Shown here one piece after another: positions 68 to 60,520 of a stretch of 64,000 bases of DNA. Numbering within the stretch: the first letter of the stretch is position 1; each line of letters starts with the position of its first letter. The position numbers and the translations under genes are program-made. The DNA is from a virus. Taxonomy: Duplodnaviria > Caudoviricetes. The notes under the pieces were generated by a model. That model worked only from the letters and a program-made list of their open reading frames with translations, searched no databases and was not told the DNA's origin. The stretch lies in the IMG/VR virus record IMGVR_UViG_3300035505_000178; one strand, given 5' to 3'.

Positions 68-268
68 TTAATTATTTTTCCATGTATCATCTTTTAACCA
101 AGGTCTATCTGGTAACCATGTTCCACTTCCGAAACAGCTTCTAATTGCATCATATACAGTAAGCCATACTAACTAAGTTCCTTTGTAGATAGCTCCTATA
201 TTTTTCTCAACTTTATTAGCAATATTCTTATAAACAGATAATATTAACTTTCCGTCTTTATATATCAT
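68..268 (-). CDS. small tail-region protein, 66 aa with TAG=Gln (…AIRSCFGSGTWLPDRPW…)
   Basis: Manual translation; one in-frame TAG; ATGA overlap with upstream gene. Confidence 0.75.
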
Positions 269-2785: not shown

Positions 2786-2954
2786 TCTAATTTAATAATT
2801 GCTATTTAATAAAATCGTGATTATCTAATTTAACTGGAAGATTAATAAAACAGATTAAATTTAATATTTCTTGATAATCTGGTCTATTACCCTTTTTAAC
2901 AGCTCTTAGAAAATCTTCATATCTTTTAATAGCTTTTCTTTTAAGAGCATCCAC
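2754..2954 (-). CDS. hypothetical late protein, ~66 aa (GTG start; alternative ATG 2978) (TAG=Gln)
   Basis: DALKRKAIKRYEDFL... reads through 3 TAG to TAA 2754. Confidence 0.6.
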
Positions 2955-4466: not shown

Positions 4467-4468
4467 AT

Positions 4469-6619: not shown

Positions 6620-6881
6620 TTGCTGGGAATTTACCAGTTACGTTATAATGTTTAATTTTAATCATTTTAGAAGCACGTATCTATTCTTTAATAAATTTAA
6701 GATACTCTTCATCTGGCAAATCTGCCATAAACACTATAGGATTTTCAGTATTATTTAAATTAAATGCTACCTTATATCCTTCGGGTTCTAAATCTTCTAT
6801 TTTTAATCTTCCGTTATATTCAGCTTTATAAATTTCTCTAATATAACCTAGGATCGCTTGTTTCAACTCTGTATGGGTCAT
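6585..6881 (-). CDS. hypothetical protein between TerL and portal, 98 aa (TAG=Gln)
   Basis: MTHTELKQAIL start; one TAG, then TGA at 6585. Confidence 0.7.
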
Positions 6882-9153: not shown

Positions 9154-9155
9154 AA

Positions 9156-9716
9156 TTAAATATCTCCTGGATCAAATCCATCTTCAATTCCAGCACGATT
9201 AACAGATTGTTCAGTTAATTCTTTCTTAACCTAATCTTCTAGAATTATTAATTCTTCATGTACCTTATGTAAAGTGGACATTTCCTTCATTACTTTTTCT
9301 GCCTGAAATACAGGCTTACCATTTGCATCACGTTCATTTAAATCCACAATCGTATCAAAGTAATCTATAAACTAATCACAAGCACGTCTTGCAGCCTATA
9401 ATAATTTAATAGATTTATTTGAATCTTGTAGTTCCCTATACTTCCTACAAGCAGCTCGAAAATCAGGATTGTTAAATTCTTCTTCTGTTATTCCAGAATC
9501 TTCTATAGCTTCCTAATGTCGTTCCTATTCTGAATACTAACTATAAGGACTTTTCCAATCTATAGCAAGATAAATATAAGTTAATTCTCTAGTTGCTCTT
9601 TCTTTAAATTTACTTTTATCTCTTTTTATTAGATTGGAAAATTCCTTAGTTAATAATAGTTCAGGTTCATTTAATTCAAGTTGCTTGTCTACATTATCAT
9701 AAACAAAAACATTCAT
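9156..9716 (-). CDS. protein directly upstream of TerL, 186 aa (TAG=Gln); possible small terminase
   Basis: MNVFVYDN...ELTYIYLAIDWKSPY; absent from ORF track because of several TAG; ends 3 nt before terL. Confidence 0.75.
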
Positions 9717-9739
9717 TAATCATTAATTTTATATTTTAA

Positions 9740-11701: not shown

Positions 11702-11703
11702 AA

Positions 11704-11907
11704 TTAAGCTAACTTTAAATCCTTGGTACTAAATACAGCTTCTTGTAATAAACCAGAAGTTGTAAACCATCTGCAACGTATTCCTTTTAATCCAGAATTA
11801 TCTTTAAATAATGCTAGCTCTTTTCTCAGAACTAGCATTTTAGGAGATTCTATTTGTCTTAATACAACAACATCTCCTGGGTGAAAATATATTTTATCCT
11901 CTTCCAT
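11704..11907 (-). CDS. YodC/DUF2158-like small protein
   Basis: FHPGDVVVL…SPKMLV…CRWF…F..L pattern. Confidence 0.7.
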   Translation of the reverse strand: MEEDKIYFHPGDVVVLRQIESPKMLVLRKELALFKDNSGLKGIRCRWFTTSGLLQEAVFSTKDLKLA

Positions 11908-12469
11908 TTTTACGTTCTGTTAATCCACTGTTAACTACAGCCATGATACGAGTTTCATTAACTGTTACGAAACCTTGTTTAAAGAACGGTATTTGATTTT
12001 CACAAGCCACTGTAAAGAACACTAAGTCACCAGTTTTTAAGAACTTAACTTCTGGACCAGTTTCAATAACAGTACCTACTTTAATAAATGGACTATCTTC
12101 TTCCTCTTGACCAGTTTCCTGATTTTTGTGAGTTTGAACCGAACCTCCACCTAAATCTACAATAATACCAGATTTTGTAACCTCAACTCTTTGGAATGGA
12201 TTTTCATTAAAAGGTTTAATAAGTACATAACTTCCAAGAGGCATAATCTCAAGACCATTCATATCCTCAGATATTTCTTTAGCATAATTTTCAAGAGCTT
12301 GATTATGTTTCTCAAATTTGTCTATATATTCATCTACCTTAGTGTTGAACTTTTCTTGTTGCTCTCTAAGAAGTGTTTTGTGTGCTTCTTCGCCATTTAA
12401 AACAAAATGTTGTCCTGTACCTTCCATTCCAGTAACCATGTCTGCAATTTTTTGATTTTGATTTCTCAT
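11894..12469 (-). CDS. GroES-like co-chaperonin domain protein
   Basis: IMPLGSYVLIKP…TKSGIIV…GTVIETGP…GDLVFF…IMAVV. Confidence 0.75.
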   Translation of the reverse strand: MRNQNQKIADMVTGMEGTGQHFVLNGEEAHKTLLREQQEKFNTKVDEYIDKFEKHNQALENYAKEISEDMNGLEIMPLGSYVLIKPFNENPFQRVEVTKSGIIVDLGGGSVQTHKNQETGQEEEDSPFIKVGTVIETGPEVKFLKTGDLVFFTVACENQIPFFKQGFVTVNETRIMAVVNSGLTERKNGRG

Positions 12470-12473
12470 AAGT

Positions 12474-12710
12474 TTACCATTTATTCATTTCACATTTTTC
12501 ATTAAATAATCTAGTCTTATTGTCTAATATACATCCGCATATTCCACATACATCTCCAATAATTTTTATATTCTATTTTTCTCTACACTTGTCACATATT
12601 TTAAGTCTATCTTTAGACATCTCTTCTTCTTTATTTGTTAATTTATAATAAATACTTTTAAGTATTCTAAAAGGATGTTTAAAAATAGCAATAATCCATT
12701 TAATTACCAT
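12474..12710 (-). CDS. Cys-rich (Zn-binding) protein, 78 aa (one TAG=Gln); paralogue of 12704-12937
   Basis: DRLKICDKC…CGICGC…KTR…C…KW. Confidence 0.75.
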
Positions 12711-12937
12711 TTGTCTATAATACAATGATTTTCTCGTCTTTGAACTTTAGTTGGAATATAACACCCACAACCTTTTACATATCCTTTTTTAGGTTTATCA
12801 CTAACATCATCATTGTCAGGATTTATATATAAATATTGATTACAAGTATCACTATCATAATTATAAATAGGACAGTGCATACAAATATTTAATCTATCAT
12901 CAATACTCAATTCTTTGGCGTTTTCTTTTGTTTTCAT
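12704..12937 (-). CDS. Cys-rich (Zn-binding) protein
   Basis: DRLNICMHC…C…GCGC…KV…C..KW. Confidence 0.7.
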   Translation of the reverse strand: MKTKENAKELSIDDRLNICMHCPIYNYDSDTCNQYLYINPDNDDVSDKPKKGYVKGCGCYIPTKVQRRENHCIIDKW

Positions 12938-13808
12938 TTAATATACTCTCCTTTTTATAAAAACGTAACATTTTAACAACTTCATCTTTTAAATAAGGTA
13001 AATGATATACAGTCATATTATCATTATGATCAAAGTGAATTAAAACTAAATCTTCAATTTCAAAACTAGGATTTAATTGTTGAATCATAACAGCATATGT
13101 ACTTAACTGCATTGTATAATGCCAATAATTAACATCATCTAAATTATTTAATGGGTATTTCATTTTAGTTGTAGACTTTGTTTTACTATTATAGAAACTC
13201 TTTTGTTCGATTTTCTTATTCGTTTTATAGTCTCCGATTACGATTTTATTACCTTTTTTGATTAATAAATCAATTTGTCCTGCTACGTTTAATTGACCAT
13301 CTTTAGAAGACCAAGAAATAAGATATTCTGGATATATTCCGTTCTCTAAGTCTAAATCAGTTTTACCTTTAACACATTCAAATTTTCCTCCAATTTGAAA
13401 TTTGCTAATGTCAATGTTATGTTTAGCTTTATAAAATGAATTTTCTAAATCTGCATGAATCTTTGTTCCTCTTTCACAAGAGTTTGTATTCTCTGCTTGC
13501 CATTCATCTAAAATTGCTTGTTGTTCTCTATTAAAATCATTTTCAGAAATATCATATAAATCAAGAATAGATTTATCAAATTTCTTAGAATTTAATAAAG
13601 ACTTTTTCTCAATATTCCAAGATTCTTTAGGTAAAAGTTTCTCTAATGCTTTATAAGCAGACCAGAAATCTTTATCAAAATCATTGGTAAAACTATGTAT
13701 CATAGTAGTAACTGATACAAAATTTTTTCTAGGATTAGTAACATCAAAGTATTTATGAGTTTCCTCAACAAATGCAATGTTACCGTTCTGTTTAGTAATT
13801 TCTTCCAT
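12900..13808 (-). CDS. PD-(D/E)XK nuclease (Cas4/exonuclease-like)
   Basis: SVTT, RGTKIH, AGQIDLL, IGDYKT, QLSTY motifs. Confidence 0.85.
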   Translation of the reverse strand: MEEITKQNGNIAFVEETHKYFDVTNPRKNFVSVTTMIHSFTNDFDKDFWSAYKALEKLLPKESWNIEKKSLLNSKKFDKSILDLYDISENDFNREQQAILDEWQAENTNSCERGTKIHADLENSFYKAKHNIDISKFQIGGKFECVKGKTDLDLENGIYPEYLISWSSKDGQLNVAGQIDLLIKKGNKIVIGDYKTNKKIEQKSFYNSKTKSTTKMKYPLNNLDDVNYWHYTMQLSTYAVMIQQLNPSFEIEDLVLIHFDHNDNMTVYHLPYLKDEVVKMLRFYKKESILNENKRKRQRIEY

Positions 13809-13935
13809 TTATTTTTCTCATTTTACATTAATCATATATCATTTTAATCTAAATAAATTTTGTATTTAACAATAATATAAATATATATGATATTGTACAA
13901 ATAATTAACCATATTATTACATATAATTTAAACAA

Positions 13936-14568
13936 ATGAATTATTTTTAGGACTTTACCTTATCTTTTCTTAAAGATGGATCTAAAATTCACATTAAAGA
14001 AGAAAATAAAGGTAAATTTACAGAGTCAGCTAAAAGGGCAGGTGAATCTGTTTAGGAACATGCTCATAAAGTTCTAAATAATCCTCACGCAACTAAATTA
14101 CAAAAGAAAAGAGCGTAGTTTGCAGTTAATGCGAAGAAATGGAAAGCTTAGGACGGAATGAAAATTAATCCTTATGATGCTGGTAATCTAACTGAAACAA
14201 TGTATAAAAATTTTAGTTTTGAAGATTATGGAGAACCGTGGCACCATTATAAGTTTACTATTCCAGAATAGTTAGCAGACAAACTAGGATATTTACCAGA
14301 TGAAAGAGGTCATAGAGATGATAGAGTTAAACTTATTACACATCCAAGTTCTCCTTATAGAGGAAAATGGAAATCACTGTATTAGTTTGATTTAACAGAT
14401 TTTGGTATGAATAATCCTAATCATACAATATTTGGATTAGCAGATGGTGGACAAGACCCACAAGCTGTAGTTACATATAAAGGAGGAATAGTACTTCCAG
14501 AAATTACTGTAACACCTAAAAGTAAATATGTAATGAATCCATATGATAATAGAAAGTTTTATTTATGA
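13936..14568 (+). CDS. crAss-type protein with IHIK..KGKFT…KRAQFA.NAKKW domain, 210 aa (TAG=Gln)
   Basis: Manual translation through TAGs; TGA overlaps next ATG (ATGA). Confidence 0.8.
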
Positions 14569-14750
14569 CGTATCAACAATCTAAAGAAAAAGCAAAAGAA
14601 GGTAAGATAATAATGTTACCAAATTATGTAGGATATTTTAATTGGGATTATGGTATAGAAAATTTAGTATTCCACAATAATACATATATTTGTGTAGCTG
14701 ATGATTTAGATAATATTAAAAACAGAAACGATTTTTATTATATTATATGA
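14565..14750 (+). CDS. hypothetical protein
   Basis: ORF track; ATGA overlaps on both sides. Confidence 0.7.
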   Translation: MTYQQSKEKAKEGKIIMLPNYVGYFNWDYGIENLVFHNNTYICVADDLDNIKNRNDFYYII

Positions 14751-15382
14751 CAGACTGGATTAATGGATGGATTCCAGAAAGAAAACGACAAGATTATTAT
14801 GATAGAATAAATCCAGGTGCTGGATTTGGACCATTTGCATTTATAGGATAGGGATTTAAATATTATTTAGGAGATGGAAGTAGTAGACAAAAAGCAACTC
14901 CAGAATCAGAAGCTAGATGGGCAGCATATTTAGGGCTACCTTATGATAAGTCTAAAGCTCCTGACACTAAAATAAGATTTGAACACGATAAAGATTATCC
15001 TGACCGATAGTATCAAGGATTAAGTGAAGATGCTAAAAATGAAATAAGAGAAAGGATAATTCCAGTACTTGAAGATAATGAATTGAAAGAAGGATGGACT
15101 TAGGTAATAGGAGACAACAATCCTATAAAAAGAAAAGCTAAATTTACTAAAGATAAAACTGTAATATATCCTAGACAAGATCATACTGATGATCTTGAAA
15201 GTTTTGGAATTAGAGAAGTAGGAAATTCTGGAATTTATGAAGTAGGAGATAAATATGATTTTCCTTGGTATGTTCCAATTCCAGATAGACCAGAAGGAAG
15301 AGAACTAATGATTAGAGATACTATATGGAGCCCAAGAGCTAATCCAAAAGAATATAAAAAATTAGTTAAAAAAAGACAATGA
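14747..15382 (+). CDS. hypothetical protein, 211 aa (TAG=Gln)
   Basis: ATGA overlaps at both ends only if TAG is read through. Confidence 0.75.
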
Positions 15383-15693
15383 AAATAATCTACAATAAAA
15401 TAATTCCGTTTCCAGGTTATAAAGCAATAAACTTATTTGGAATATTATTTGCTAGAAAGAATGCAAAGATAGATTAGAAAACTATCAATCATGAATCTAT
15501 TCACACAACTTAGATGAAAGAGATGTTATATATTCCTTTTTATATTTGGTATTTAATTGAATATATAATTCTCCTTATAAAGAAAGATAAGAATCCTTAT
15601 AGAAATATCCGATTTGAAAAGGAAGCTTATTTATATCAAGATGATGATGAATATTTGAAACATAGAACACATTTTGTATGGGCAAGCTTGTAA
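15379..15693 (+). CDS. HExxH membrane-associated putative metallopeptidase (Bacteroidetes family), 104 aa (TAG=Gln)
   Basis: AINLFG…NHESIHTTQMKEMLYIPFYIWY…RNIRFEKEAY; the Q after the HExxH is TAG (15511). Confidence 0.8.
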
Positions 15694-16559
15694 AAAGATG
15701 TCAAACTGGTTCAGTACTTGATACTCCTTGGAGTAACTATATGGAAGAATTAAAAACTACTGATCCAGATAAGTATAATTAAATACAATATAATAAAGCT
15801 CGCAATAAAGCTCCACATAGCGAAATAGTAACCTATACTGACGCTTCTGGTAAAACTGTTAGAAGAGGAAATACTGGAGCTGGATATGTAAGTGGCAATG
15901 ATCCTGTAGGAGATTTTATTGTTACAGGTGCTGTGTTAGGTAAGCCTTTAAGTTGGGTTGGTGGTAAAGCAGTAGACTTAGGATTAGGAATTGCTGGTAA
16001 ATATGGAAGTGGAACTGTTCAATAGGCTGCTAGAAATAGACTTGTTGGTAGAGTAATGAGCAGACAAACTCCAGAAACTCCTCAAACTATATTCTTTAAT
16101 AATGTAGGTTGGGGTCCGAAAGAAACTATGAATGTAGTTCATAAATCTTTATCTGCTGAACCTCTTAAATTATATAATCCTAATAGATATGATGTTGTTA
16201 ATGAAGGAGCTAATCCTCATGGTATTTGGTACACTATAAATCAAGGAGTTGAAAGAACTGCTAAAAATTCTACTCCAGAAAAAGCTGTTAAAGCTGCAAA
16301 TACAAGAAAAATGTTTGCTAAACGTCCTTATACTCATGAAGGAGAATTAACTTTAGATAAACCTATGGTTACTGTAGGTGATGTTCCAGATAGATCATAT
16401 TTAAGTTATTATGCAGATAATGCTGGAGCTGATGGATTAATTTATAATGATATTTATGACAATGGATATAATCATGCTAGAGAAGTATTATCTTATAAAC
16501 TTCATGATAATTAGCCATTAAATATTCCGTCAAATAATAAAGAACTTATATATAAATAA
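15678..16559 (+). pseudogene. 293-codon late gene (TAG=Gln) interrupted by one in-frame TAA at 15780
   Basis: MGKLVKRCQTG start in frame with fragment 16056-16514; single TAA at codon 35. Confidence 0.55.
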
Positions 16560-16568
16560 AAATAGAAA

Positions 16569-17396
16569 ATGATAAAAAATAAGCTTATAAAAAGATATTA
16601 TGAAGGTGGTAAAAGTATACTAAATAAAGAACCAGCTGCTGTAGATAATACTTATGTAAGAAAACCTGAAATATTTACTCCTATAAAAGTTAAAGATAAA
16701 GAAGCAGAAGCCATTAAAGAAAGAATACGTGTAGCAGAAGAATGGCAAAGACAAAATAGTGTAAATCCAGAGGTTTATGATATATTTGAAAATCCTAAAA
16801 AATCTGCTATAATAGAGGCAAAACTAAAATCACGTCGATTTAATAGTATTCCTTATATTAAGGATGATGAAATAATGCTTAGGACAGGTAAATACAATAC
16901 AGGTAAAATAAGTAAAAATGTATTGGATTCTATTTATGCTTCTTCACAAAGAACTGGAGTTCCTATTGAAATTCCTATGGGAATAGCTGGAGTTGAAAGT
17001 ACTTTAGGAATAGGATATGGATTTAAAGAAGGTCGTCCAATTTCAAGTACTGAATTAGTCTCTAATTGGCAGCAATTTGGACTGAATACAGAAAAAGTAT
17101 CTGAAGTAAATAAATATAATGATATTTATCATAAATATTTAAAAGGTGAAAGATTATCTGATTCTGAAATTGAATTTGTAAAAAAGCGGGAAGAAAAGAA
17201 TAATGTTAATCTAAAAAATGTGGAAGCCGTAAAAGAACTTAAAGAAAATCCCATTGATAATGCTGTTAGATATTTCTTAAAGGGGAAGTATAATCCAGAA
17301 GAACCTGGATACAATGATAAAGTAAGAACAGAGGGCAAACTTTTAATGACAGACCCAGCTATTAAGAAATGGTACAATAATAAAATTAAGAAGTAA
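16569..17396 (+). CDS. putative virion protein with lysozyme-fold (transglycosylase-like) segment
   Basis: RTGVPIEIPMGIAGVESTLG; N-terminal KLIKRYYEGG. Confidence 0.55.
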   Translation: MIKNKLIKRYYEGGKSILNKEPAAVDNTYVRKPEIFTPIKVKDKEAEAIKERIRVAEEWQRQNSVNPEVYDIFENPKKSAIIEAKLKSRRFNSIPYIKDDEIMLRTGKYNTGKISKNVLDSIYASSQRTGVPIEIPMGIAGVESTLGIGYGFKEGRPISSTELVSNWQQFGLNTEKVSEVNKYNDIYHKYLKGERLSDSEIEFVKKREEKNNVNLKNVEAVKELKENPIDNAVRYFLKGKYNPEEPGYNDKVRTEGKLLMTDPAIKKWYNNKIKK

Positions 17397-17400
17397 ATAC

Positions 17401-19053
17401 ATGACAAAACTTATAAAGAGATACTAGCAAGGAGGGGTCAATGAATATACTATATAGCCTGGCGACAATTTAAGTATAATTGCAAAAAATAACAATGTTA
17501 AATTAAACGATTTAATAAGTCTTAATAATATATAGGATCGCAATTTTATAAGAGTTGGACAAAAATTAAAACTTCCTCAATCGGTAAAAAAGTTTAATGA
17601 TTAGACTACTACTGAATATATTATACAGCCAGGTGATAATTTAAGTACGATTGCTAAGAACAACAATGTTAATTTAGATGATTTAATACGTCTTAATGGT
17701 ATACAAAACACCAATCTTATTGGAGTTGGTTAGAAATTAAAAATTCCTCAATATAAACCTACTTATTAGGTAAGAAGTTTTAATGATATTTAGTAGATAG
17801 AATCTAATTTAAATTAGAAAAGTGATATTGATATTATTAATACTTATCATGCAACTAAATAGGATAATACTCCTTATATAATAGACGATAAGAAGAACAA
17901 TAAACTAAATGTATATATTAATGGAAAATTGATTAAATCGTTTAATGCTATACATGGAAAATATTCTAATTCTTTTGGAAATACTTATAATAAAAAAACA
18001 AAAACTGGATATTAGCAAACTGATATTGATCCAGATGAAATGACTATAACCTATGTTGATAGTAAAGGAAATATAAAGAATTTAGCTGGTAATCTTACAA
18101 CTCCTGCAGGAATATACTTCTCTAGTAGAAGTAATAACTATCATGGAGCACCTTCTTATATAAGAAGAACTCAACAACAGATAGATTCTAAAAATAATTT
18201 AGGTATTCCATCATCTATACATGCAAGAACTATAAGAGAAGGCGCTAATACTAATGGGTGTACTGGATTATCTAATGAAGACTTACATAAGTTATCTAAG
18301 CTATTAGATGGATATGATAATGTTCCAACTTATATTCTTCCTTCTAATCCACAGAATAGATTTATGATTAGAAATGGATAGCTTTAGTTTAATTCACATG
18401 ATGCTAGTAAAACACCAAATCATTTTACTATAGACTATTCTCCTATTAAGTCAATTAAGTATTCTGCTACAGGATTAGATTCACATTAGAGAGAAGTATA
18501 TAGTGGATTCTCTAAAGGATTAATGCAAAATAAGACTAATCTTTAGAAAGATTTAGGTATTAATAATGATACTTATATACAATTATCTTAGGCTGCGTTA
18601 GGTATATTAGGAGCTGAATCTTAGTATGGATAGAAACATAGTCCTCTTATGAATTTCGCAAGAGCTGCTCATAAATTTATCTCTCATAATAATAGTTCTC
18701 CAGATATTTATAGTAAATATACTACATACGGAGCTAATAAAGATAATAATTCTATAGGATTGACTTAGATACGTTTAAAACGAGAAGAAAATGGTAAATT
18801 AGTAGATAATTTATCTGAAAGATCTAAAGCTCTATTTAAAAAGTATAATATTACAAAAGATGATTTAGTGAATAGTCCAGAAAAAGCAGCTATTGCTACT
18901 ATGATAATATTGGGAGATAATTATTTAAATAGAGGTAGGACAGTTTAGAAAGCTGTTGCTTCTTGGAATCCAAGATAGAATTATTACGATAGAGTAATGA
19001 ATAATTCTAAAAGAGCAGTATTCAGTTAGAATTATCTTAATTTTAAAACATAA
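17401..19053 (+). CDS. 2xLysM + L,D-transpeptidase (YkuD-like) + lytic transglycosylase-like protein, 550 aa (TAG=Gln)
   Basis: YTIQPGDNLS..IA LysM repeats; TPAGIY…SIHAR…TNGCTGL; GILGAES…GLTQI…ASWN; about 20 in-frame TAG. Confidence 0.85.
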
Positions 19054-41371: not shown

Positions 41372-41869
41372 ATGAAAAAGAGAGTTTACATAACAACTTT
41401 AATTATAGCAATAATTTGTAGTTTTATATCTGGAATCACTACACATTATTTCGTTCCAACGACAAACAAAACAAATGATTCGGTAATATTATTACCAGAA
41501 CACCCTTTCTATCTTTTAGAAGATGTGAATGACTCTATTTTGTATTTAACCTTGAAACACTATGAATTTCCAGAACCTGCAATTATTGTAGCTCAAGCTA
41601 AATTAGAATCTGGAAATTATAATTCAAGATTATGTTTAAATAATAACAATTTATTCGGATTATATAATTCAACTAAAGGTAATTACTTTAAATTTGATAG
41701 TTGGATAGGATGTGTATTTGCGTATAGAGATTATATTTTAACTAAACGTAAAAAGAATGAAGACTATTATCAATTTTTAAAGAGAATTAACTACGCAGAA
41801 GATCCGAATTATATCAAAAAATTGAAGAAAACGGAAAAAATTATTCGTGACAAATATGAGAAATTTTAA
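41372..41869 (+). CDS. glucosaminidase (GH73-like) domain protein with N-terminal signal anchor
   Basis: IVAQAKLESG…NNNLFG…YAEDPNY. Confidence 0.8.
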   Translation: MKKRVYITTLIIAIICSFISGITTHYFVPTTNKTNDSVILLPEHPFYLLEDVNDSILYLTLKHYEFPEPAIIVAQAKLESGNYNSRLCLNNNNLFGLYNSTKGNYFKFDSWIGCVFAYRDYILTKRKKNEDYYQFLKRINYAEDPNYIKKLKKTEKIIRDKYEKF

Positions 41870-41922
41870 CAAATTTTAACATTTTTTAACTTGTAAAACT
41901 CTGTTTGTCATAGTACTATTGT
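41861..41922 (+). promoter_or_regulatory. conserved promoter driving the tRNA cluster
   Basis: (TTTTAAC)x3 at 10-bp phase, TTGTAA-17-TACTAT-TGT. Confidence 0.75.
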
Positions 41923-41931
41923 TAGAAAGAT

Positions 41932-41995
41932 GTTCCAATAGTTTAGATATTAGAACGCAACAGTTGAAACTCAGGAGAATAACCTGATTGGAACA
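41932..41995 (+). ncRNA. tRNA-like RNA lacking an anticodon loop
   Basis: GTTCCAA/TTGGAAC acceptor, D arm, CAAC-A-GTTG stump, TCAGG-AGAATAA-CCTGA T arm. Confidence 0.6.
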
Positions 41996-41999
41996 AAAT

Positions 42000-42072
42000 T
42001 GGGATATGGTGTAATGGTTAGTCACTACAGTTTTTGGAGCTGTCAGTACAAGTTCGACTCTTGTTATCCCAA
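42000..42072 (+). tRNA. tRNA-Gln(UUG)
   Basis: Cloverleaf; loop TT-TTG-GA. Confidence 0.9.
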
Positions 42073-42081
42073 CAATTAAAT

Positions 42082-42166
42082 GCTCGAATGGTGTAATTGG
42101 TAGCCACGTCAGATTTAAGCTCTGATGGTCATTGCGACTGTGTGGGTTCGAGTCCCACTTCGAGTA
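42082..42166 (+). tRNA. tRNA-Leu(UAA)
   Basis: Cloverleaf with long variable arm; loop TT-TAA-GC. Confidence 0.92.
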
Positions 42167-42418
42167 CAAAGTGATTTATTAACACAGTAAGACTATAAAG
42201 GAATTATTTCTGAGGACGTAATATATTTTGTAGCAATGTAAATAAATCCGCTCGTGATTTAGAAGTAGGTACGTAACTATCTAAATTAAACTCAAGAGTC
42301 ATTTGAGGTAGAGTTTTTAGGGAGGGGTTATGACGTGCAGCCAAAACATAATTACAGGATGCATACTGTATATTATCATTTAATCGTTTTACTGATTGTC
42401 TGGTTTGGATTAAAGTTT

Positions 42419-42491
42419 CCCGTATTCGTATATGGAGTACGCTCCGACTCTAAATCGGTGAGGTCTGCAGTTCGATACTGCTTATACGGGC
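42419..42491 (+). tRNA. atypical amber suppressor tRNA (anticodon CUA at 42450-42452)
   Basis: CCCGTAT/ATACGGG acceptor, CCGA-CTCTAAA-TCGG anticodon arm, GCAG-TTCGATA-CTGC T arm. Confidence 0.8.
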
Positions 42492-42494
42492 TAT

Positions 42495-42567
42495 GCTCCC
42501 ATCGACAAGTTGGTTAAGTCGTCAGATTTTCATTCTGGAGTCAGGGGTTCGAATCCCCTTGGGAGTA
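42495..42567 (+). tRNA. tRNA-Glu(UUC)
   Basis: Cloverleaf; loop TT-TTC-AT. Confidence 0.92.
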
Positions 42568-42605
42568 CAATATCGGTAGATTAATTTTTTTAATTTTTAA
42601 ATTTT

Positions 42606-42779
42606 ATGTTTATGCGTAAAGTAATTCTTTTCTCTGCCTTTATTTTGGGCATGATGTGTTCTTGTGGCAATAAGCCAGCAAATGTTTCTACTTCTGCAGA
42701 TTCAACAGCAGTTGATTCAATTGAAGTTGTAGATACTTTGTCAGTAGATACATTAACTCTTGATACTTTGTCAGAGTAA
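42606..42779 (+). CDS. 57-aa lipoprotein with D(S/T)x repeats
   Basis: MFMRKVILFSAFILGMMCSC-GNKPANVSTSADSTAVDSIEVVDTLSVDTLTLDTLSE. Confidence 0.7.
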   Translation: MFMRKVILFSAFILGMMCSCGNKPANVSTSADSTAVDSIEVVDTLSVDTLTLDTLSE

Positions 42780-42821
42780 TTAATTAGATTAAAGTGTTAT
42801 AGCTCACTTTAAAAGCTATAT

Positions 42822-42896
42822 TGGAGGTATAGCTCAACAGGTTAGAGCAATTGACTGTTAATCAATAGGTTATAGGTTCGAGTCCTATTATTCCAG
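42822..42896 (+). tRNA. tRNA-Asn(GUU), bulged acceptor stem
   Basis: ATTGA-CTGTTAA-TCAAT; canonical D and T arms. Confidence 0.85.
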
Positions 42897-43020
42897 CTAA
42901 AGAGATAATTAAGTTTAAAGGACACATTCTTAATTATCATGCACTTCTTTTAGAATATAAACAATAAATAATTAGTGCGTTATTTGTAGTTTATTTAAAA
43001 AATGTAGGTCCGTTTTTGTT

Positions 43021-43097
43021 TGATACTTAGTCCAACCGGCAGGACGCTCATCAAAGTACTGAAATGAGAGGTAGTGGTTCGAATCTGCTAGTATCAA
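43021..43097 (+). ncRNA. tRNA-like RNA with 12-nt anticodon loop
   Basis: TGATACT/AGTATCA, GTCC/GGAC D stem, CTCAT-CAAAGTACTGAA-ATGAG, GGTTCGAATC T loop. Confidence 0.7.
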
Positions 43098-43135
43098 CAA
43101 TTAACCATATGTGATTTAATTTTAAAAATTGCTTT

Positions 43136-43163
43136 AATAGACGGTCTGTGAAGATAGTCTATT
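43136..43163 (+). repeat. conserved GNRA hairpin (copy 1 of 4; others 43562-43589, 44271-44294, 44432-44456)
   Basis: stem-GGTYY-GYGA-RRATAG-stem. Confidence 0.65.
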
Positions 43164-43166
43164 TTA

Positions 43167-43291
43167 AATGATGTATATGGTCAACATCAACGCAGTTCTA
43201 TTTCGCGAGAGAATGTGCAGAGAGTAAGGTGCAAGACAGTAATGGAGAGGGCAGAAGTTCTTGAAAGTACACGATGGAAGTATATATCATT
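43167..43291 (+). ncRNA. candidate structured RNA
   Basis: AATGATGTATA…TATATATCATT end pairing; ORF-free, between tRNAs. Confidence 0.45.
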
Positions 43292-43295
43292 AAAA

Positions 43296-43369
43296 GGATC
43301 CGTAGCTCAGTTGGTTAGAGCAATAGACTCATAATCTGGAGGTCATAGGTTCAAGCCCTATCGGATCCA
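43296..43369 (+). tRNA. tRNA-Met/Ile2 (CAU), elongator type
   Basis: Cloverleaf; loop CT-CAT-AA; no initiator GGG/CCC anticodon stem. Confidence 0.88.
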
Positions 43370-43370
43370 C

Positions 43371-43463
43371 AAACCAGAGAAATCCAGGTTAAAATCCTGT
43401 TTGGAAATAGACTACACATCATTGTTTGCCTATTTAGCATATAGTAGAATAATGCGCTGGTTT
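43371..43463 (+). ncRNA. circularly permuted tRNA-like element
   Basis: AAACCAG…CTGGTTT closing stem; T-like arm precedes closed acceptor-like stem and D-like arm. Confidence 0.5.
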
Positions 43464-43466
43464 TAT

Positions 43467-43541
43467 AGACCGTTAGTTCAGTTGGTTAAGAATGTTTGTC
43501 TTACACACAAAAGGTCGTAGGTTCGAGTCCTACACGGTCTA
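43467..43541 (+). tRNA. tRNA-Val(UAC)
   Basis: Cloverleaf; loop CT-TAC-AC. Confidence 0.92.
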
Positions 43542-43593
43542 CTAAAGGTTAAACATGTGTGAACTTCTGGTTCGTGAGAATAGGAAGTTTTAT

Positions 43594-43664
43594 CTCCGAT
43601 TGACCGAGTGGTTAGGTGAAGATCTGCAAAATCTTAAACATTGGTTCGAATCCAATATTGGAGT
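43594..43664 (+). tRNA. tRNA-Cys(GCA)
   Basis: Cloverleaf; loop CT-GCA-AA; U73. Confidence 0.9.
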
Positions 43665-43666
43665 CT

Positions 43667-44107
43667 ATGATAAAACACAAAAGTAAAGACGCAAAAGAAG
43701 ACCTAGAAACATTTCGTAAATTCTCTTCTGAACATTTAAAAAGTAGAAGAGAATATTATGGACATCTTTGGGAAGATGCTCCAGAAGAGTTCAAGTCTGA
43801 TATAATAAATCAGATTAATAAGGAAATGGAATGGATGTTTGATTTACATCCATATTATGTAGGTAAGAGATGGTTACAATGTAATGCTAGTAGATACCCT
43901 CGTTACTGTAGAGTTAGTAACATTGAATGGGAATTTCCAGATATTACTAATAGTGATAAATTATATCCTGTTGTAAAAAGTATGAAGATTGATGACCACG
44001 ACGTAAATGGAAAAATTACCTACAGTATGACCTATGAATATCCAGAAGAAGATTGGTTCTTAGATGGATGGGTCAATCGTAAGTCAAATGATATAGATGA
44101 TGATTAA
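43667..44107 (+). CDS. hypothetical protein within tRNA cluster
   Basis: ATG 43667 right after tRNA-Cys (the track start overlaps the tRNA). Confidence 0.65.
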   Translation: MIKHKSKDAKEDLETFRKFSSEHLKSRREYYGHLWEDAPEEFKSDIINQINKEMEWMFDLHPYYVGKRWLQCNASRYPRYCRVSNIEWEFPDITNSDKLYPVVKSMKIDDHDVNGKITYSMTYEYPEEDWFLDGWVNRKSNDIDDD

Positions 44108-44158
44108 TTTTATAGTTTAAGTTAGTGTATAAATAATTTGTTTGTGAAAATAGATTAA

Positions 44159-44242
44159 TGGAGTGCTGCAGAGTTGGCGAACTGCGATAGACTGTAAATC
44201 TATTGACTTTGGTCTGAGGGGGTTCGAGTCCCTCCACTCCAA
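44159..44242 (+). tRNA. tRNA-Tyr(GUA)
   Basis: Cloverleaf, long variable arm; loop CT-GTA-AA. Confidence 0.9.
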
Positions 44243-44295
44243 CGTATTGTGTTTTAGATAATCTGATCAATGACTGGTCTGCGAAGATAGGTCAT

Positions 44296-44362
44296 AGCAA
44301 TGTAGTGTAAGGAGCACGCTCAAAAGCTATGAGAAGTTTAGGTTCGATACCTGACATTGCAA
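44296..44362 (+). ncRNA. tRNA-like RNA with aberrant anticodon arm (CTCA-AAAGCTA-TGAG)
   Basis: GCAATG/CATTGC acceptor, GTGT/GCAC D stem, GGTTCGATAC T loop; no U33. Confidence 0.6.
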
Positions 44363-44464
44363 CTCGTGTTTTCATGGTACGCTTATTAATTTAAGCATAT
44401 TAATTTTTTGATTGTTATTAATTTATTTAGGTAATTGGTTCGTGAGAATAGATTATTTAAAAAC

Positions 44465-44554
44465 TGGGATGCTTGGTACAGAGTTGGAGAACTGTAACAG
44501 ACGATGAATCTGTTGGCATTTTTGCCTGAGTAGGTTCGAATCCTACCATCCCAA
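44465..44554 (+). tRNA. atypical Tyr-bodied tRNA with loop CG-ATG-AA
   Basis: Paralogue of 44159 tRNA; 4-nt insertion before D arm; G33. Confidence 0.65.
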
Positions 44555-44664
44555 CTAATTATGGTGATCGTACAATATCAAATTGGAATTGGTTTTGATT
44601 TTCAACCAATAGTTGTAAATCATTATATTGAAGAGATTAAATTATTTAATAAGATAAGATTAAA

Positions 44665-45528
44665 ATGAAAGATTTTTTTAGTAAGTCTGGTATTACCAGC
44701 ACAGATGCAAATTTTTATGCGAATCTTGCACAAGAAAAGATTCAGAATAAGTTGAAGCAAATAGAATCAATGTCTTTTGTGAATACTTACGTTCAAGTCG
44801 TTGGAACAAACGGAAAACTTTTGATGTCTAAAGGAGTACATAAGTATAATATAGATGAAGTAATTAAAAATATTACAGAAGCTAATTCATTATGTGCTTG
44901 GTTAAGAGAAGCTATCAAGTATAAGGATCAGCTTTTAAAAGAAGCAGAACAAGAACTTAATAAAACTTATGAAGTTCCTTGTCCAGAACCTCCTGTACGT
45001 CCTACTCCTCTTACAGAAGATGACATCATCGCTCAGATGGATTCTAATGAGTATTATAAATACTTAGCATTGGAATCTGCAGCAGCTACTTATGGAAAAA
45101 TTATCCATCCTAAGAGACCGTTTAGCATTGCTAGACAGGATCTTTTGGATAAAGTTAATAACCCAATTTCTAAAGAAGGAACTGGAACAGATACAACTTT
45201 GTATTATTACGAAGAAACTGTTAATCCTGATGAAATTGAGGACTATTTTGAGAAATTGCAGAATGATTATAGAGCTTTTGAGAAAGAGCTTAATAACATG
45301 AAAGCAATAATTAAGGATCGTCTGGCTAAAGCTAATATAGACCTCGAAGAGGAATATAAGAAAGCTTATGCTAAATATCACCAAGAATATGTCGATTGGA
45401 CCAAAGCTGGTTCAGACTTCTATTGTAATCAGAAAGAGAAAGTTATTAATGAGAAAGATAGAATATCTAAGCTCAAAATTAAAATTCCTACTGATTTACA
45501 AGACATATTCAATAAAATCTCTAAATAA
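44665..45528 (+). CDS. coiled-coil-rich hypothetical protein
   Basis: ORF track; AWLREAIK, LESAAATYGKIIHP. Confidence 0.8.
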   Translation: MKDFFSKSGITSTDANFYANLAQEKIQNKLKQIESMSFVNTYVQVVGTNGKLLMSKGVHKYNIDEVIKNITEANSLCAWLREAIKYKDQLLKEAEQELNKTYEVPCPEPPVRPTPLTEDDIIAQMDSNEYYKYLALESAAATYGKIIHPKRPFSIARQDLLDKVNNPISKEGTGTDTTLYYYEETVNPDEIEDYFEKLQNDYRAFEKELNNMKAIIKDRLAKANIDLEEEYKKAYAKYHQEYVDWTKAGSDFYCNQKEKVINEKDRISKLKIKIPTDLQDIFNKISK

Positions 45529-45535
45529 TTAGAGT

Positions 45536-45704
45536 TATTATAGAGAGAACGAGAAATCATAATGGACATTATATAAGTTTTAAATTTAACTTCTTCTTGG
45601 CAGGGATTACACAATTTTACAAATTGTCTTTGTCTTCGTTTGTAATTCCTGGTCTTTGTCTTAGTTTTTAACTTAGTCTACGCTTCTCGTTTCTCTCTAT
45701 AATA
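45536..45704 (+). ncRNA. long rod-like hairpin RNA candidate
   Basis: TATTATAGAGAGAACGAGAA…TTCTCGTTTCTCTCTATAATA plus inner CAGGGATTACA/TGTAATTCCTG. Confidence 0.6.
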
Positions 45705-45804
45705 TTTTGTGTATCAGTTGCAAGTTATCTTTAAACTTGATGACTGTTGTCTCTAACTTCTCAACAAGATGAATTGGAGGGGTGCTTATCCTTAAAGCAA
45801 ACCT

Positions 45805-48567: not shown

Positions 48568-49106
48568 AGAAGGATATTGTAGAATATTGCGTAGGAATAT
48601 TTACGGACTTCAAAAATCAGCAACACGTAATTACTGCTTGTGCTGTTAGTAAAACACCTGAATCTTCTGACCTTATGGTTGGTTGGGTAAACGATGATAA
48701 CAGATTAGATGAAGATGAAGACATCTTTAACTCTGTTGTACGAACAGTATCAATTGGTTTCAGTATTTGTAGTCCTGGAGATGAGTATGATGAAGAGGTA
48801 GGAAAACAAATTGCTTTTAATAGAGCAAATAAAGCTATCCCTGTATTGTATTCTACTCAGAAAGGAATTATAAGTTCTGATTTAGTACAGACACTGATGG
48901 ACAAAGAGATTGAATATTTAAAATCTCATCCCGAGAAAATATTCCCAGGATATGCTAAATCCTACAAACGTTATGCAATGAAGGTTGCTGCCAAAGAGTT
49001 GTATGACGAGGCTACACAAGATGAACAGCAAATCATAACATTAGCTCTAAGTGGAGCTGATATTGAGAAATGCTTAAAGATTTTTAAGTGTATGAATGAA
49101 AACTAA
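48564..49106 (+). CDS. hypothetical protein with GFSIC.P.DEYD…G..IA motif
   Basis: Motif related to 39060. Confidence 0.7.
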   Translation: MKKDIVEYCVGIFTDFKNQQHVITACAVSKTPESSDLMVGWVNDDNRLDEDEDIFNSVVRTVSIGFSICSPGDEYDEEVGKQIAFNRANKAIPVLYSTQKGIISSDLVQTLMDKEIEYLKSHPEKIFPGYAKSYKRYAMKVAAKELYDEATQDEQQIITLALSGADIEKCLKIFKCMNEN

Positions 49107-49374
49107 AGTTTTAATCGGAATTTTGTTATGTCTGATTATATGTTTTATTGTTGATAAATGCGATAATAAAGAAACTAAAACTACTATTATTACAGTAACA
49201 AAAGATTCTTTAATTAGAGACAGTATTTATATAATAAATGATTCTATCACGACTAAAATAAAATATATTGAAAAAGAACATGCTGAAAAAATTCCTATTA
49301 TTATGTCTAATTCTGTCAGTGACGACAAAGAGTTTTTCTCAAGATACATTAACAGTTACAATAACAGAGAATGA
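49096..49374 (+). CDS. membrane-anchored protein (possible spanin-like component)
   Basis: N-terminal TM; overlaps next gene. Confidence 0.55.
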   Translation: MKTKVLIGILLCLIICFIVDKCDNKETKTTIITVTKDSLIRDSIYIINDSITTKIKYIEKEHAEKIPIIMSNSVSDDKEFFSRYINSYNNRE

Positions 49375-60448: not shown

Positions 60449-60486
60449 TTTTATCATATAAATATCCACTCCTTTTAGGAGATACA

Positions 60487-60520
60487 AGGTCACTGCTCGT
60501 GAGGGTAGTGACCTTTTATT
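60487..60520 (+). terminator. intrinsic terminator
   Basis: AAGGTCACTGCTC-GTGA-GGGTAGTGACCTTTT. Confidence 0.8.

What the first reader, a model, noticed from the sequence alone, without database searches (positions are those of the whole stretch)
43098..44456. Repeated unit between tRNAs: variable U-rich tract (often antisense to a start-codon region) plus a conserved GNRA hairpin
Seen: four hairpins (43136-43163, 43562-43589, 44271-44294, 44432-44456) share stem-G·A-G·U-3bp-GYGA with compensatory changes, and each ends within 10 nt of the next RNA gene. In three, the preceding tract contains CAT. Its reverse complement reads like a Bacteroidetes initiation region, e.g. aaaattaaatcacatATGGTTAAT, caaaaaattaatATGCTTAAA, gcgtaccATGAAAACAC, tcacacATGTTTAAC. 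I found no exact match to genes in this window. Inference: small RNAs excised by tRNA processing, with a variable guide and a constant protein-binding handle, that silence host or phage mRNAs. Alternatively they are only processing signals.
Basis: partly seen in the sequence, partly recalled or inferred. Interest (0 to 1): 0.7.

Follow-up and report, generated by a model that had tools for sequence, protein, structure and literature searches.

The report
Conserved hairpin punctuating phage tRNA arrays
A short RNA hairpin with an almost invariant tip sits just in front of several tRNA genes in this gut phage; it belongs to a large family, found in no database or paper I could search, in phages of Bacteroides-type bacteria, and it most likely marks and protects RNA ends rather than guiding gene silencing.

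Summary
The window, from a TAG-recoded crAss-like phage, has five strong copies (one new, before tRNA-Tyr) and one weak copy of a hairpin. Its module is Y-(G)G-YYY-GUGA-RRR-UA-G on a freely covarying 5-9 bp stem. All five strong copies end 0-7 nt before a tRNA, tRNA-like or structured RNA.

The same module occurs over a hundred times in Bacteroidales phages and prophages, including cultured crAss001 and DAC19. In host genomes it is sporadic. It is read on the sense strand (51 G·U against 5 A·C) and matches no Rfam family or searched paper. This scan met what is probably the same family once before, on other DNA (e1-5185927).

In complete phage genomes the copies cluster in tRNA arrays. Elsewhere they lie in short gaps between co-oriented genes, and 55% are followed by a U-run.

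Best reading (about 0.4): a hairpin that becomes the 3' end of the upstream RNA, by termination or by RNase P cutting the next tRNA. Its invariant tip probably binds an unknown factor.

The "antisense guide" idea is weakly supported. CAT is 1.9-fold enriched upstream, but complementarity to start regions is not above controls, apart from one borderline case.

The parts
43136..43163 (+). Hairpin copy 1 (core 43143-43156, GGUCUGUGAAGAUA; 7-bp outer stem). It lies 37 nt after the tRNA-like gene at 43021-43098 and about 4 nt before a folded 125-nt stretch.
   Evidence: 39.9 bits
43562..43589 (+). Hairpin copy 2 (core 43569-43582, GGUUCGUGAGAAUA), 4 nt before tRNA-Cys.
   Evidence: 45.5 bits
44134..44157 (+). 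Hairpin copy 5, new and degenerate (core 44139-44152, UGUUUGUGAAAAUA). It lies 26 nt after the stop of ORF 43667-44107 and 1 nt before tRNA-Tyr.
   Evidence: 32.2 bits
44271..44294 (+). Hairpin copy 3 (core 44276-44289, GGUCUGCGAAGAUA), abutting the atypical tRNA at 44296-44363.
   Evidence: 31.3 bits
44426..44461 (+). Hairpin copy 4 (core 44437-44450; the outer stem can extend to 11 bp), about 3-4 nt before the tRNA-like RNA at 44464-44553.
   Evidence: 42.6 bits
60487..60514 (+). Weak variant copy (core UGCUCGUGAGGGUA) in the gap between two co-oriented protein genes, 58 nt before the ORF that starts at 60574.
   Evidence: (17.5 bits, E 0.05)
43099..43135 (+). Variable spacer tract 1 (contains CAT). 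It is highly variable between strains.
43543..43561 (+). Variable spacer tract 2 (contains CAT).
44244..44270 (+). Variable spacer tract 3 (no CAT; has the UUGUGUUUU motif).
44364..44425 (+). Variable spacer tract 4. It starts with CGUGUUUUCAUGGUA, a motif that recurs after tRNAs in unrelated Bacteroidales phages, and contains a small palindromic hairpin.
43594..43665 (+). tRNA-Cys(GCA), downstream partner of copy 2.
44159..44243 (+). tRNA-Tyr(GUA), downstream partner of copy 5.
44296..44363 (+). Atypical 68-nt tRNA (ARAGORN calls it Ala-AGC; no U33), downstream partner of copy 3.
44464..44553 (+). tRNA-like cloverleaf with a long variable arm and anticodon loop CGAUGAA. ARAGORN does not call it. 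Downstream partner of copy 4.
   Evidence: (tRNA-Sec model, 25 bits, below threshold)
43167..43292 (+). Unannotated folded stretch closed by a 12-bp stem, between copy 1 and tRNA-Met. Whether it is an RNA gene is unproven.
   Evidence: (z -2.2)

Best explanation
The element is a sense-strand RNA hairpin that punctuates transcripts of Bacteroidales phages and ends up as the 3'-terminal structure of the RNA upstream of it.

Between protein genes it is usually followed by a U-run and so acts as an intrinsic terminator. This is inferred from its shape.

In tRNA arrays it lies 0-7 nt before the next tRNA. RNase P cleavage at that tRNA's 5' end would then leave the upstream RNA ending in the hairpin plus a very short tail. 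That upstream RNA is a spacer, or the mRNA of ORF 43667-44107. From general knowledge of RNase II, PNPase and RNase R, such an end resists 3' exonucleases. This step is also inferred.

The almost invariant tip, Y-(G)G-YYY-GUGA-RRR-UA-G, cannot be explained by folding alone. It is most likely the docking site of a conserved, still unknown protein, more probably a host protein than a phage one, because very different phages share the tip. That factor could act on termination, on processing or on stability.

Shown here: the structure, its strand, its conservation, its positions and its distribution. Inferred: every biochemical step.
For: - **Structure and strand.** 97.8% of cells pair and 202 carry double changes. 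Outer stems hold 51 G·U against 5 A·C, and 124 of 138 stems are longer on the given strand.
- **Orientation.** 84 of 138 copies have a same-strand ORF ending within 200 nt upstream; only 11 have a possible antisense ORF.
- **Position between genes.** The median distance is about 44 nt after a stop codon and 38-51 nt before the next ATG. DAC19 has one 20 nt after a stop and 18 nt before the next start.
- **U-run.** At least 4 U directly after the stem in 65 of 138 copies (64 of 117 outside the tRNA class), against 6-11 of 138 in downstream control windows and 11 and 34 of 138 in upstream ones. There is no A-run upstream.
- **Position before tRNAs.** 21 non-redundant copies lie -3 to 11 nt before a tRNA 5' end, mostly 2-5 nt.
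- **Clustering in arrays.** In complete phage genomes the copies cluster in the tRNA arrays: 7 of 7, 5 of 6 and 4 of 5 by my reading of the coordinates. In the window it is 5 of 6.
- **Invariant tip.** The loop is GUGA in 129 of 138 copies. The inner helix always has pyrimidines 5' and purines 3'; the search pattern imposed that Y/R rule and several fixed bases, but not the GUGA loop or the closing pair. The closing pair is Y-G in 43 of 43 copies that were not selected by the search word.
- **mRNA case in the window.** Copy 5 lies between the stop of ORF 43667-44107 and tRNA-Tyr.
Against: - No RNA ends were observed. The only public runs that hold this phage are kept as contigs, which cannot show starts or ends.
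- The copies next to tRNAs mostly lack a U-run, so two different ways of making the 3' end must be assumed.
- In a spacer without an ORF it is unclear what benefits from protection.
- A hairpin that blocks 3' exonucleases would hinder trimming of the upstream tRNA unless RNase Z cuts first.
- The clustering in tRNA arrays of complete phage genomes is not what a general terminator would show.
- No candidate binding protein was identified.
Confidence: 0.4

Rival explanations
1. It is a 5'-leader element for tRNA maturation. In this reading the hairpin belongs to the downstream tRNA. It would be a recognition or cleavage site for an endonuclease (of RNase III, Y or E type, or a phage enzyme) that separates precursor units. 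Alternatively it could be a leader structure that tunes or gates RNase P cleavage.
For: - The spacing to tRNA 5' ends is tight, mostly 2-5 nt.
- The copies cluster in tRNA arrays in complete phage genomes.
- The hairpin also precedes non-tRNA structured RNAs, such as hammerhead-like units in L081 and L103 and the folded stretch at 43167.
- The same arrays carry other processing devices in related gut phages (theta ribozymes, PMC10879173).
Against: - The distance from loop to tRNA 5' end varies (about 11-19 nt in the window), so the hairpin is not a ruler.
- Most family copies are not next to tRNAs, and 55% of those are followed by U-runs.
- Only 1 of the 25 annotated crAss001 tRNAs has it, so it is not needed for tRNA maturation in general.
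- tRNAs in these loci are not preceded by ordinary, non-family helices more often than control windows are.
Confidence: 0.2
2. It is a cis-acting transcription element of the nut/put/EAR kind. The nascent hairpin, possibly with the U/G-rich tract upstream, would bind RNA polymerase or an elongation factor (NusA, NusG or a paralogue). This would cause pausing or processive antitermination across untranslated, terminator-rich RNA islands and long horizontally acquired operons.
For: - The architecture is a linear U-rich motif followed by a hairpin with a GNRA-type loop, as in lambda boxA-boxB.
- It occurs in tRNA arrays, which are untranslated and therefore Rho-prone (general knowledge).
- It occurs in a Bacteroides capsule locus 35 nt before a UpxZ gene.
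- Window copy 3 shares CUGCGAAG with the B. fragilis opsE site (PMC11685472).
- An earlier follow-up in this scan reached the same comparison (e1-5185927).
Against: - U-runs directly after the stem are the opposite of what an antiterminator site needs.
- The copies are repeated every 100-400 nt instead of once per operon.
- The Bacteroides rrn boxA sequences (UUCUUUGAAA and AUCUUUGACA) do not match the upstream motif.
- The majority core lacks the YGCGNAGCR ops hairpin.
- The model's hits in G001 lie far from its five rRNA operons.
Confidence: 0.15
3. One reading: spacer-plus-hairpin RNAs released by tRNA processing are riboregulators. The variable tract would pair with start-codon regions of host or phage mRNAs, and the hairpin would be a protein-binding handle.
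For: - CAT is 1.9-fold enriched in the 40 nt upstream: 116 occurrences against 39-88 for its five permutations. It is not enriched downstream.
- The contexts UUUCAU and UUCAUG are the antisense of AUGAAA.
- Spacer 4 can pair with the start region of ORF 49096 at -26.7 kcal/mol, against -20.1 ± 1.7 for dinucleotide shuffles; 0 of 150 shuffles reach the observed value.
- There are precedents. Bacteroides FopS and GibS sRNAs pair near start codons (PMC11697453). From my own knowledge, E. coli 3'ETS-leuZ shows that tRNA spacers can be functional.
Against: - Four of five window tracts, and the crAss001 tract, pair with start regions no better than with ORF interiors or than shuffled tracts.
- The spacer 4 hit owes part of its energy to two similar palindromic mini-hairpins, which are self-complementary by nature.
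- Tract 1 is hypervariable between strains.
- Most family copies follow protein genes and have no free 'guide'.
- The recurrent UUUUCAUGGUA motif sits right after the upstream tRNA, not next to the handle.
- No discrete small RNA was observed.
Confidence: 0.08
4. It is a DNA-level element: a recombination or mobility site of the REP, attC or IS200-end type that shuffles tRNA cassettes.
For: It sits beside cassette-like tRNA genes and is sporadic in host genomes, mostly in prophage arrays and acquired loci. One strain lacks an 83-nt spacer block in this array.
Against: - The strong strand asymmetry (51 G·U against 5 A·C, plus a conserved G·U and G·A) fits RNA, or at most one DNA strand.
- Stems differ completely within one genome, unlike REP copies.
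- The conserved part is apical, not basal as in attC.
- No transposase or integrase association was seen.
Confidence: 0.03

Closest known systems
Intrinsic (Rho-independent) terminators and T7-type intercistronic hairpins that leave a protective 3' stem-loop
   Same: A sense-strand hairpin in short gaps between co-oriented genes. It is followed by a U-run in 55% of the copies that are not next to tRNAs, and it would end up at the 3' end of the upstream RNA.
   Different: It has a sequence-specific, nearly invariant 16-nt tip. The copies directly before tRNAs lack the U-run. In complete phage genomes the copies cluster in tRNA arrays instead of marking operon ends.
Lambda nut site (boxA plus boxB hairpin bound by N) and other cis antitermination RNAs (HK022 put, Bacillus EAR)
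   Same: A small hairpin with a GNRA-type loop and a conserved upper stem, preceded by a U-rich linear tract, carried by phages.
   Different: There are many copies per operon. U-runs often follow. The linear tract does not match Bacteroides boxA. No N-like partner is known.
Bacteroides FopS/GibS small RNAs (PMC11697453)
   Same: The unit is 'single-stranded tract plus terminal hairpin'. These sRNAs act on start-codon regions in the same host group, and one family member is phage-borne.
   Different: In FopS the seed is conserved and the hairpin is ordinary; here the hairpin is conserved and the tract is variable. There is no Rfam match, and the element is embedded in tRNA precursors rather than having its own promoter.
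tRNA-spacer-derived regulatory RNAs (E. coli 3'ETS-leuZ; from my own knowledge)
   Same: It lies in spacers of polycistronic tRNA precursors and would be released by RNase P and RNase Z or E.
   Different: No target or sponge partner is evident, and stable accumulation was not shown.
Theta (minimal HDV-like) and hammerhead ribozymes of gut phage tRNA arrays (PMC10879173)
   Same: It occupies the same niche: a small structured RNA in tRNA arrays of Bacteroidota gut phages, some of them stop-codon-recoded. In L081 and L103 it sits directly beside hammerhead-like cores.
   Different: It is a simple hairpin with no double pseudoknot or three-way junction. It lies 5' of tRNAs, not at their 3' ends. 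Nothing suggests catalysis.
Histone mRNA 3' stem-loop bound by SLBP (analogy only; from my own knowledge)
   Same: A short 3'-end hairpin whose stem sequence (GG-YYY.../...RRR) and loop are conserved because a dedicated protein reads them.
   Different: It is eukaryotic with no homology. The loop and pairing details differ.

Membership tests
Intrinsic terminator | Stable hairpin on the transcribed strand | tested here: met
   Folds of -5.7 to -18.4 kcal/mol. Covariation and G·U asymmetry.
Intrinsic terminator | U-tract immediately 3' of the stem | tested here: inconclusive
   Across the family, 64 of 117 non-tRNA copies have at least 4 U, against 4-8% in downstream control windows. In the window, copies 1 and 2 reach 4 U only by counting stem bases, and copies 3 and 5 have none.
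Intrinsic terminator | Termination of transcription at the site | not testable with these tools
   The public runs are contigs only.
Lambda-type nut site | boxB-like hairpin with a GNRA-fold loop | tested here: met
   A GUGA tetraloop on a conserved 3-bp helix. This is resemblance in shape only.
Lambda-type nut site | boxA element resembling the host rrn boxA | tested here: not met
   The Bacteroides rrn leader and spacer carry UUCUUUGAAA and AUCUUUGACA. The enriched upstream words are UUGUGU, GUGUUU and UUCAUG.
Lambda-type nut site | One site per operon, promoter-proximal | tested here: not met
   5 copies in 1.3 kb in the window and 7 in 2.2 kb in G273.
FopS/GibS sRNA family | Match to the curated model or the conserved R1 seed | tested here: not met
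   No Rfam hit at E up to 5 in 41800-44700. The tracts are variable.
Theta / HDV-like ribozyme | Nested double pseudoknot starting at the tRNA 3' end, with a catalytic C in J4/2 | tested here: not met
   Only 18-37 nt precede the hairpin in spacers 1-3, and 0-7 nt follow it, so there is no room for P1-P3 and P2'. No Rfam hit. The motif is described in PMC10879173.
tRNA-spacer-derived sRNA (3'ETS type) | Lies within a polycistronic tRNA precursor between processing sites | tested here: met
   Positions relative to ARAGORN and Rfam tRNAs. Co-transcription is inferred.
tRNA-spacer-derived sRNA (3'ETS type) | Stable accumulation and a complementary partner RNA | tested here: inconclusive
   No read-level data. 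Complementarity to start regions is not enriched, apart from spacer 4 against ORF 49096.
Bacteroides ops (UpxY recruitment site) | Non-template DNA hairpin YGCGNAGCR in a capsule-operon leader | tested here: not met
   Only window copy 3 shares CUGCGAAG. The dominant core UUCGUGAGAA lacks it.
REP / attC-type DNA repeats | Whole-element sequence similarity within a genome, and function independent of the transcribed strand | tested here: not met
   Stems differ between all copies in one phage. 51 G·U against 5 A·C.
Any Rfam 15 family | Covariance-model match | tested here: not met
   Only tRNA hits in the window and in related loci. No hits at all in the Bacteroides host loci that carry the hairpin.

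The most novel reading that the evidence does not exclude
tRNA processing in Bacteroidales phages releases a class of small RNAs that each consist of a fast-evolving single-stranded tract and the invariant GUGA hairpin. A dedicated hairpin-binding protein would load them as guides or sponges against translation-start regions. This would be a tRNA-punctuated array of programmable riboregulators, with a handle-plus-guide layout like a CRISPR RNA (from my own knowledge).
Probability: 0.07. Interest if true: 0.9.

Novelty: new variant of a known kind. Interest (0 to 1): 0.6.

Why it matters
Gut Bacteroidales phages, crAss-like ones included, are among the most abundant human-associated viruses, and their RNA biology is barely known. 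I found no description of this motif, yet it has over a hundred independent copies, textbook covariation and a sequence-specific tip. That points to an unknown RNA-binding factor or RNA-polymerase interaction in Bacteroidales, a group reported to lack Hfq and ProQ (from my own knowledge).

The motif is present in two cultured systems: crAss001 with B. intestinalis, and DAC19 with B. thetaiotaomicron. Its role in termination, tRNA-array processing or RNA stability can therefore be tested directly. It would also improve the annotation of phage RNA islands and could provide a compact terminator or insulator part for Bacteroides engineering.

Tried and rejected
- **Theta/HDV-like ribozyme.** Rejected: the spacers are too short and there is no Rfam hit.
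- **Divergent genes as the source of the CAT enrichment.** Rejected: only 11 of 138 copies have an antisense ORF of at least 60 aa that starts within 60 nt.
- **Sense-strand mini-ORF from the AUG in UUUCAUGG.** By hand-reading of several copies, the frames and stops are inconsistent.
- **Bacteroides promoter (-33 TTTG, -7 TAnnTTTG) with the hairpin in or after it.** Some host copies have a -7-like box just upstream. But covariation of the outermost stem pairs requires the full 5' arm to be transcribed, and the phage copies lack the box.
- **A general rule that any helix abuts tRNA 5' ends.** Not supported: by my subtraction of the family hairpins, 50% of tRNAs have such a helix, against 45% of control windows.
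- **rrn boxA similarity.** Not convincing.
- **Partner proteins.** A TROVE/Ro60 partner is absent from the window. Pfam and PHROGs gave nothing for the ORFs inside and beside the array, apart from a glucosaminidase and an RNase H.
- **Close relatives for comparison.** The 287-aa neighbour gave none. The RNase H neighbour gave two loci at 56% identity, neither with the hairpin. blastn of the odd RNAs against the held loci gave nothing.
- **RNA-seq.** 21 runs labelled as metatranscriptomes hold parts of the stretch, but they are kept as contigs. Contig ends near hairpins (43162; 44264-44267) and uncovered parts cannot be read as RNA ends or as absence.
- **Literature.** Searches for the core sequences and for related terms found nothing that describes the motif. 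The GUCCY-hairpin and Bacteroides-1 motifs of Weinberg 2010 are different.
Full report
**What is there.** Reading 42400-45200 and folding the spacers confirms the four hairpins at the reported coordinates. Each has a variable outer stem, a G opposite an A, a G·U pair, a 3-bp helix with pyrimidines on the 5' side and purines on the 3' side, and a GYGA loop. The 14-nt core pattern, allowing one mismatch, matches five times in the 64-kb window. All five are on the + strand within 1.3 kb. Shuffles give 0.34 matches and none of 100 reaches five. The fifth match (hairpin 44134-44157) is a degenerate copy that abuts tRNA-Tyr.

ARAGORN and Rfam place tRNA-Cys, tRNA-Tyr and an atypical 68-nt tRNA 0-4 nt after copies 2, 5 and 3. 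Copy 4 precedes a cloverleaf-shaped tRNA-like RNA that only reaches a sub-threshold score. Copy 1 precedes an unannotated 125-nt folded stretch.

**Setting.** The window is AT-rich. Its long reverse-strand genes open only when TAG is read as a sense codon (17 against 9 ORFs of at least 250 aa). It carries a CUA-anticodon tRNA. Notes on the same genome describe the giant virion RNA polymerase genes of a crAss-like phage. No whole genome is held for it, and no phage in the annotated collection is close at the DNA level.

**A large family.**
Nearly all hits are flanked by complementary arms of quite different sequence.
- An alignment of 57 copies gives 97.8% paired cells, 202 cells with changes on both sides (56 in shuffles) and a covariation score of 0.79 against 0.16. 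Slid controls stay at 37-51% paired.
- A covariance model built from this alignment scores the five window copies at 31-45 bits. It finds one weaker variant at 60484-60517, between two protein genes, and many more copies with variant cores in the fetched loci.
- In 138 non-redundant copies the loop is GUGA in 129. The inner helix is UUC/GAA, UCU/AGA, UCC/GGA or UUU/AAA. My search pattern allowed only pyrimidines 5' and purines 3' here, and fixed several core bases, so those features are partly imposed. The GUGA loop and the closing pair were not imposed.
- The pair that closes the outer stem is Y-G in 43 of 43 copies not selected by the search word.
- The outer stems hold 51 G·U but only 5 A·C, and 124 of 138 stems are longer on the given strand. 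The structure is therefore read on the sense strand, almost certainly as RNA.

**Distribution.**
- The same 16-mer hit 119 stretches in 596 Gb of bacterial and archaeal genomes. About half of them lack arms and are scattered over unrelated phyla, as chance matches would be. The 59 with arms of at least 5 bp lie, with few exceptions, in Bacteroides, Prevotella, Alistipes, Muribaculaceae and similar gut assemblies.
- With the model, 12 of 121 genomes sampled from the family of Bacteroides sp. KFT8 have a copy at E up to 1e-4, usually a single one. Only 2 of 151 genomes sampled across that genome's phylum do, and one of those is KFT8 itself.
- In Bacteroides chromosomes the copies lie in prophage-borne arrays of tRNA-like genes (L190, next to a gene that I judge Erf-like by eye). 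They also lie in intergenic gaps of acquired loci, for example five in a capsule locus, one of them 35 nt before a UpxZ gene.
- In three complete phage genomes, by my reading of the coordinates, 7 of 7, 5 of 6 and 4 of 5 copies fall inside the tRNA array. In the window it is 5 of 6.
- Two cultured phages carry the hairpin. crAss001 has one copy, which by the coordinates ends about 7 nt before tRNA-Glu. DAC19 has three; the best lies 20 nt after one gene and 18 nt before the next.

**Contexts.**
- Copies are co-oriented with their neighbours. 84 of 138 have a same-strand ORF ending within 200 nt upstream, and 11 have a possible antisense ORF.
- They lie about 44 nt (median) after a stop codon and 38-51 nt before the next ATG.
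- A run of at least 4 U follows the stem in 65 of 138 copies (64 of 117 outside the tRNA class). Control windows give 6-11 of 138 downstream and 11 and 34 of 138 upstream. There is no A-run upstream.
- 21 non-redundant copies lie -3 to 11 nt, mostly 2-5 nt, before tRNAs of many isotypes.
- A few copies directly precede hammerhead-like CUGAUGAG cores (L081, L103).
- Ordinary non-family helices do not abut tRNAs more often than control windows.

**The antisense-guide idea.**
- CAT is enriched in the 40 nt upstream: 116 occurrences against 39-88 for its permutations. It is not enriched downstream. The enriched words include UUCAUG, UUUCAU, UUGUGU and GUGUUU.
- A motif close to GUGUUUUUCAUGGUA recurs right after the upstream tRNA in unrelated phages, in window spacer 4 and, in a variant form, in crAss001. 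Real divergent genes do not explain it.
- Predicted duplexes between the five window tracts and the start regions of 108 ORFs are no better than with ORF interiors or than shuffled tracts. The exception is spacer 4 against ORF 49096: -26.7 kcal/mol against -20.1 ± 1.7, with 0 of 150 dinucleotide shuffles as good. Part of that pairing comes from two similar palindromic mini-hairpins.
- The crAss001 tract shows no enrichment.
- In strain variants seen in public runs, tract 1 carries six substitutions and a 6-nt insertion. No change was listed inside hairpin 1.
- Those runs are kept as contigs, so they cannot show discrete small RNAs or ends.

**Comparison with known elements.**
- Rfam gives only tRNAs in the window and in related loci, and nothing at all in the host loci that carry the hairpin.
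- No paper in the library holds the core sequences.
- The GUCCY-hairpin and Bacteroides-1 motifs are different.
- The theta ribozyme paper does not mention hairpins or leaders, and the spacers are too short for an HDV-like fold.
- The B. fragilis ops sites (YGCGNAGCR) resemble only copy 3.
- Bacteroides rrn boxA sequences do not match the upstream motif.
- FopS and GibS sRNAs are the nearest precedent for regulation at start codons in this host group. They have a conserved seed and an ordinary terminator, the reverse of what is seen here.
- An earlier follow-up in this scan (e1-5185927) reported a so-far undescribed hairpin family just upstream of tRNA genes in several Bacteroidota phages. That is probably the same family, but I could not compare the sequences.

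**Mechanism.** One statement covers both contexts: the hairpin becomes the 3'-terminal structure of the upstream RNA. This would happen by termination where a U-run follows, or by RNase P cleavage where a tRNA follows within 0-7 nt. Copy 5, between the stop of ORF 43667-44107 and tRNA-Tyr, is the clearest example on an mRNA.

A hairpin with a tail of a few nucleotides resists 3' exonucleases (general knowledge of RNase II, PNPase and RNase R). The invariant tip calls for a sequence-reading partner. Because very different phages share the tip, a host factor is more likely than a phage one. All of this is inference, and I give it about 0.4.

**Verdict.** This is a real, widespread RNA motif of Bacteroidales phages that I could not find described anywhere. 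It has very strong comparative support and an open function. Its preferred interpretation is weakly supported, and its fallback ('processing signals') is closer to the evidence.

Noticed in passing
window 1-19053 and 42420-42491: The long structural genes open only when TAG is read as a sense codon (17 against 9 ORFs of at least 250 aa). A CUA-anticodon tRNA lies at 42420-42491, 3 nt before tRNA-Glu. The standard-code early and replication genes lie on the + strand from about 22 kb onward.
   Followed up: partly
window 43374-43456: One contig of run X4 joins 43373 to 43457 and skips 83 nt, with 2 other letters between. A related strain therefore lacks most of the 96-nt spacer between tRNA-Met and tRNA-Val, the stretch another reader called a permuted tRNA. 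The block is dispensable or mobile.
   Followed up: no
window 45359-45797: The stretch after the 287-aa ORF is by far the deepest part in three RNA-labelled runs: depth up to 464 against 0-28 over most of the tRNA array (61 in one bin). Sequencing-adapter letters sit at 45359, 45779 and 45797. This suggests an abundant discrete RNA or fragment, though DNA carry-over cannot be excluded.
   Followed up: no
window 44296-44363 and 44464-44553: Two tRNA-shaped genes have intact acceptor and T arms but anticodon loops without U33 (AAAGCUA and CGAUGAA). The second has a long variable arm and is missed by ARAGORN.
   Followed up: partly
window 44364-44397 versus 49071-49110: The start of spacer 4 is imperfectly complementary over about 34 nt, with two exact 8-mers, to the start-codon region of the 92-aa ORF at 49096. 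Both stretches contain a small palindromic hairpin with similar arms.
   Followed up: partly
L081 3862-4016 (-) and L103 6979-7128 (+): In two viral contigs a family hairpin is followed by a hammerhead-like core (CUGAUGAG...), then by a second family hairpin and tRNA-Gln. The hairpin thus precedes ribozyme units as well as tRNAs.
   Followed up: no
L190 1800-2960 (Bacteroides sp. KFT8 chromosome): A prophage-like array of tRNA-shaped genes has 25-60-nt insertions. Each gene is followed by a 3-bp GUGA mini-hairpin (CUCGUGAGAG or CCCGUGAGGG), then a GUCGUGUUUUAUUUUGUG tract, a family hairpin and a U-run. A gene that looks Erf-like by eye lies next to the array.
   Followed up: partly
L232 1300-1780 (-) and L233 2180-9550 (-), uncultured Bacteroides genome G003: One Bacteroides genome has 16 copies. 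Three lie in a 230-bp tandem duplication behind FdtA-like genes. Five lie in a capsule locus, one of them 35 nt before a UpxZ gene.
   Followed up: partly
L239 46870-48288 (crAss001 gp96) and L109 10223-10918: crAss001 encodes a TROVE (Ro60-like) protein next to a 900-nt gene-free gap. A distant relative of that protein is encoded near the hairpin-rich tRNA array of L109. The window has none.
   Followed up: partly
L026 9480-10980 (-): An RNA island has at least six family hairpins, tRNA genes split by insertions of about 100 nt, and a recurring second hairpin, GGACGAAAGUCC, 16-20 nt after two of the family hairpins.
   Followed up: no
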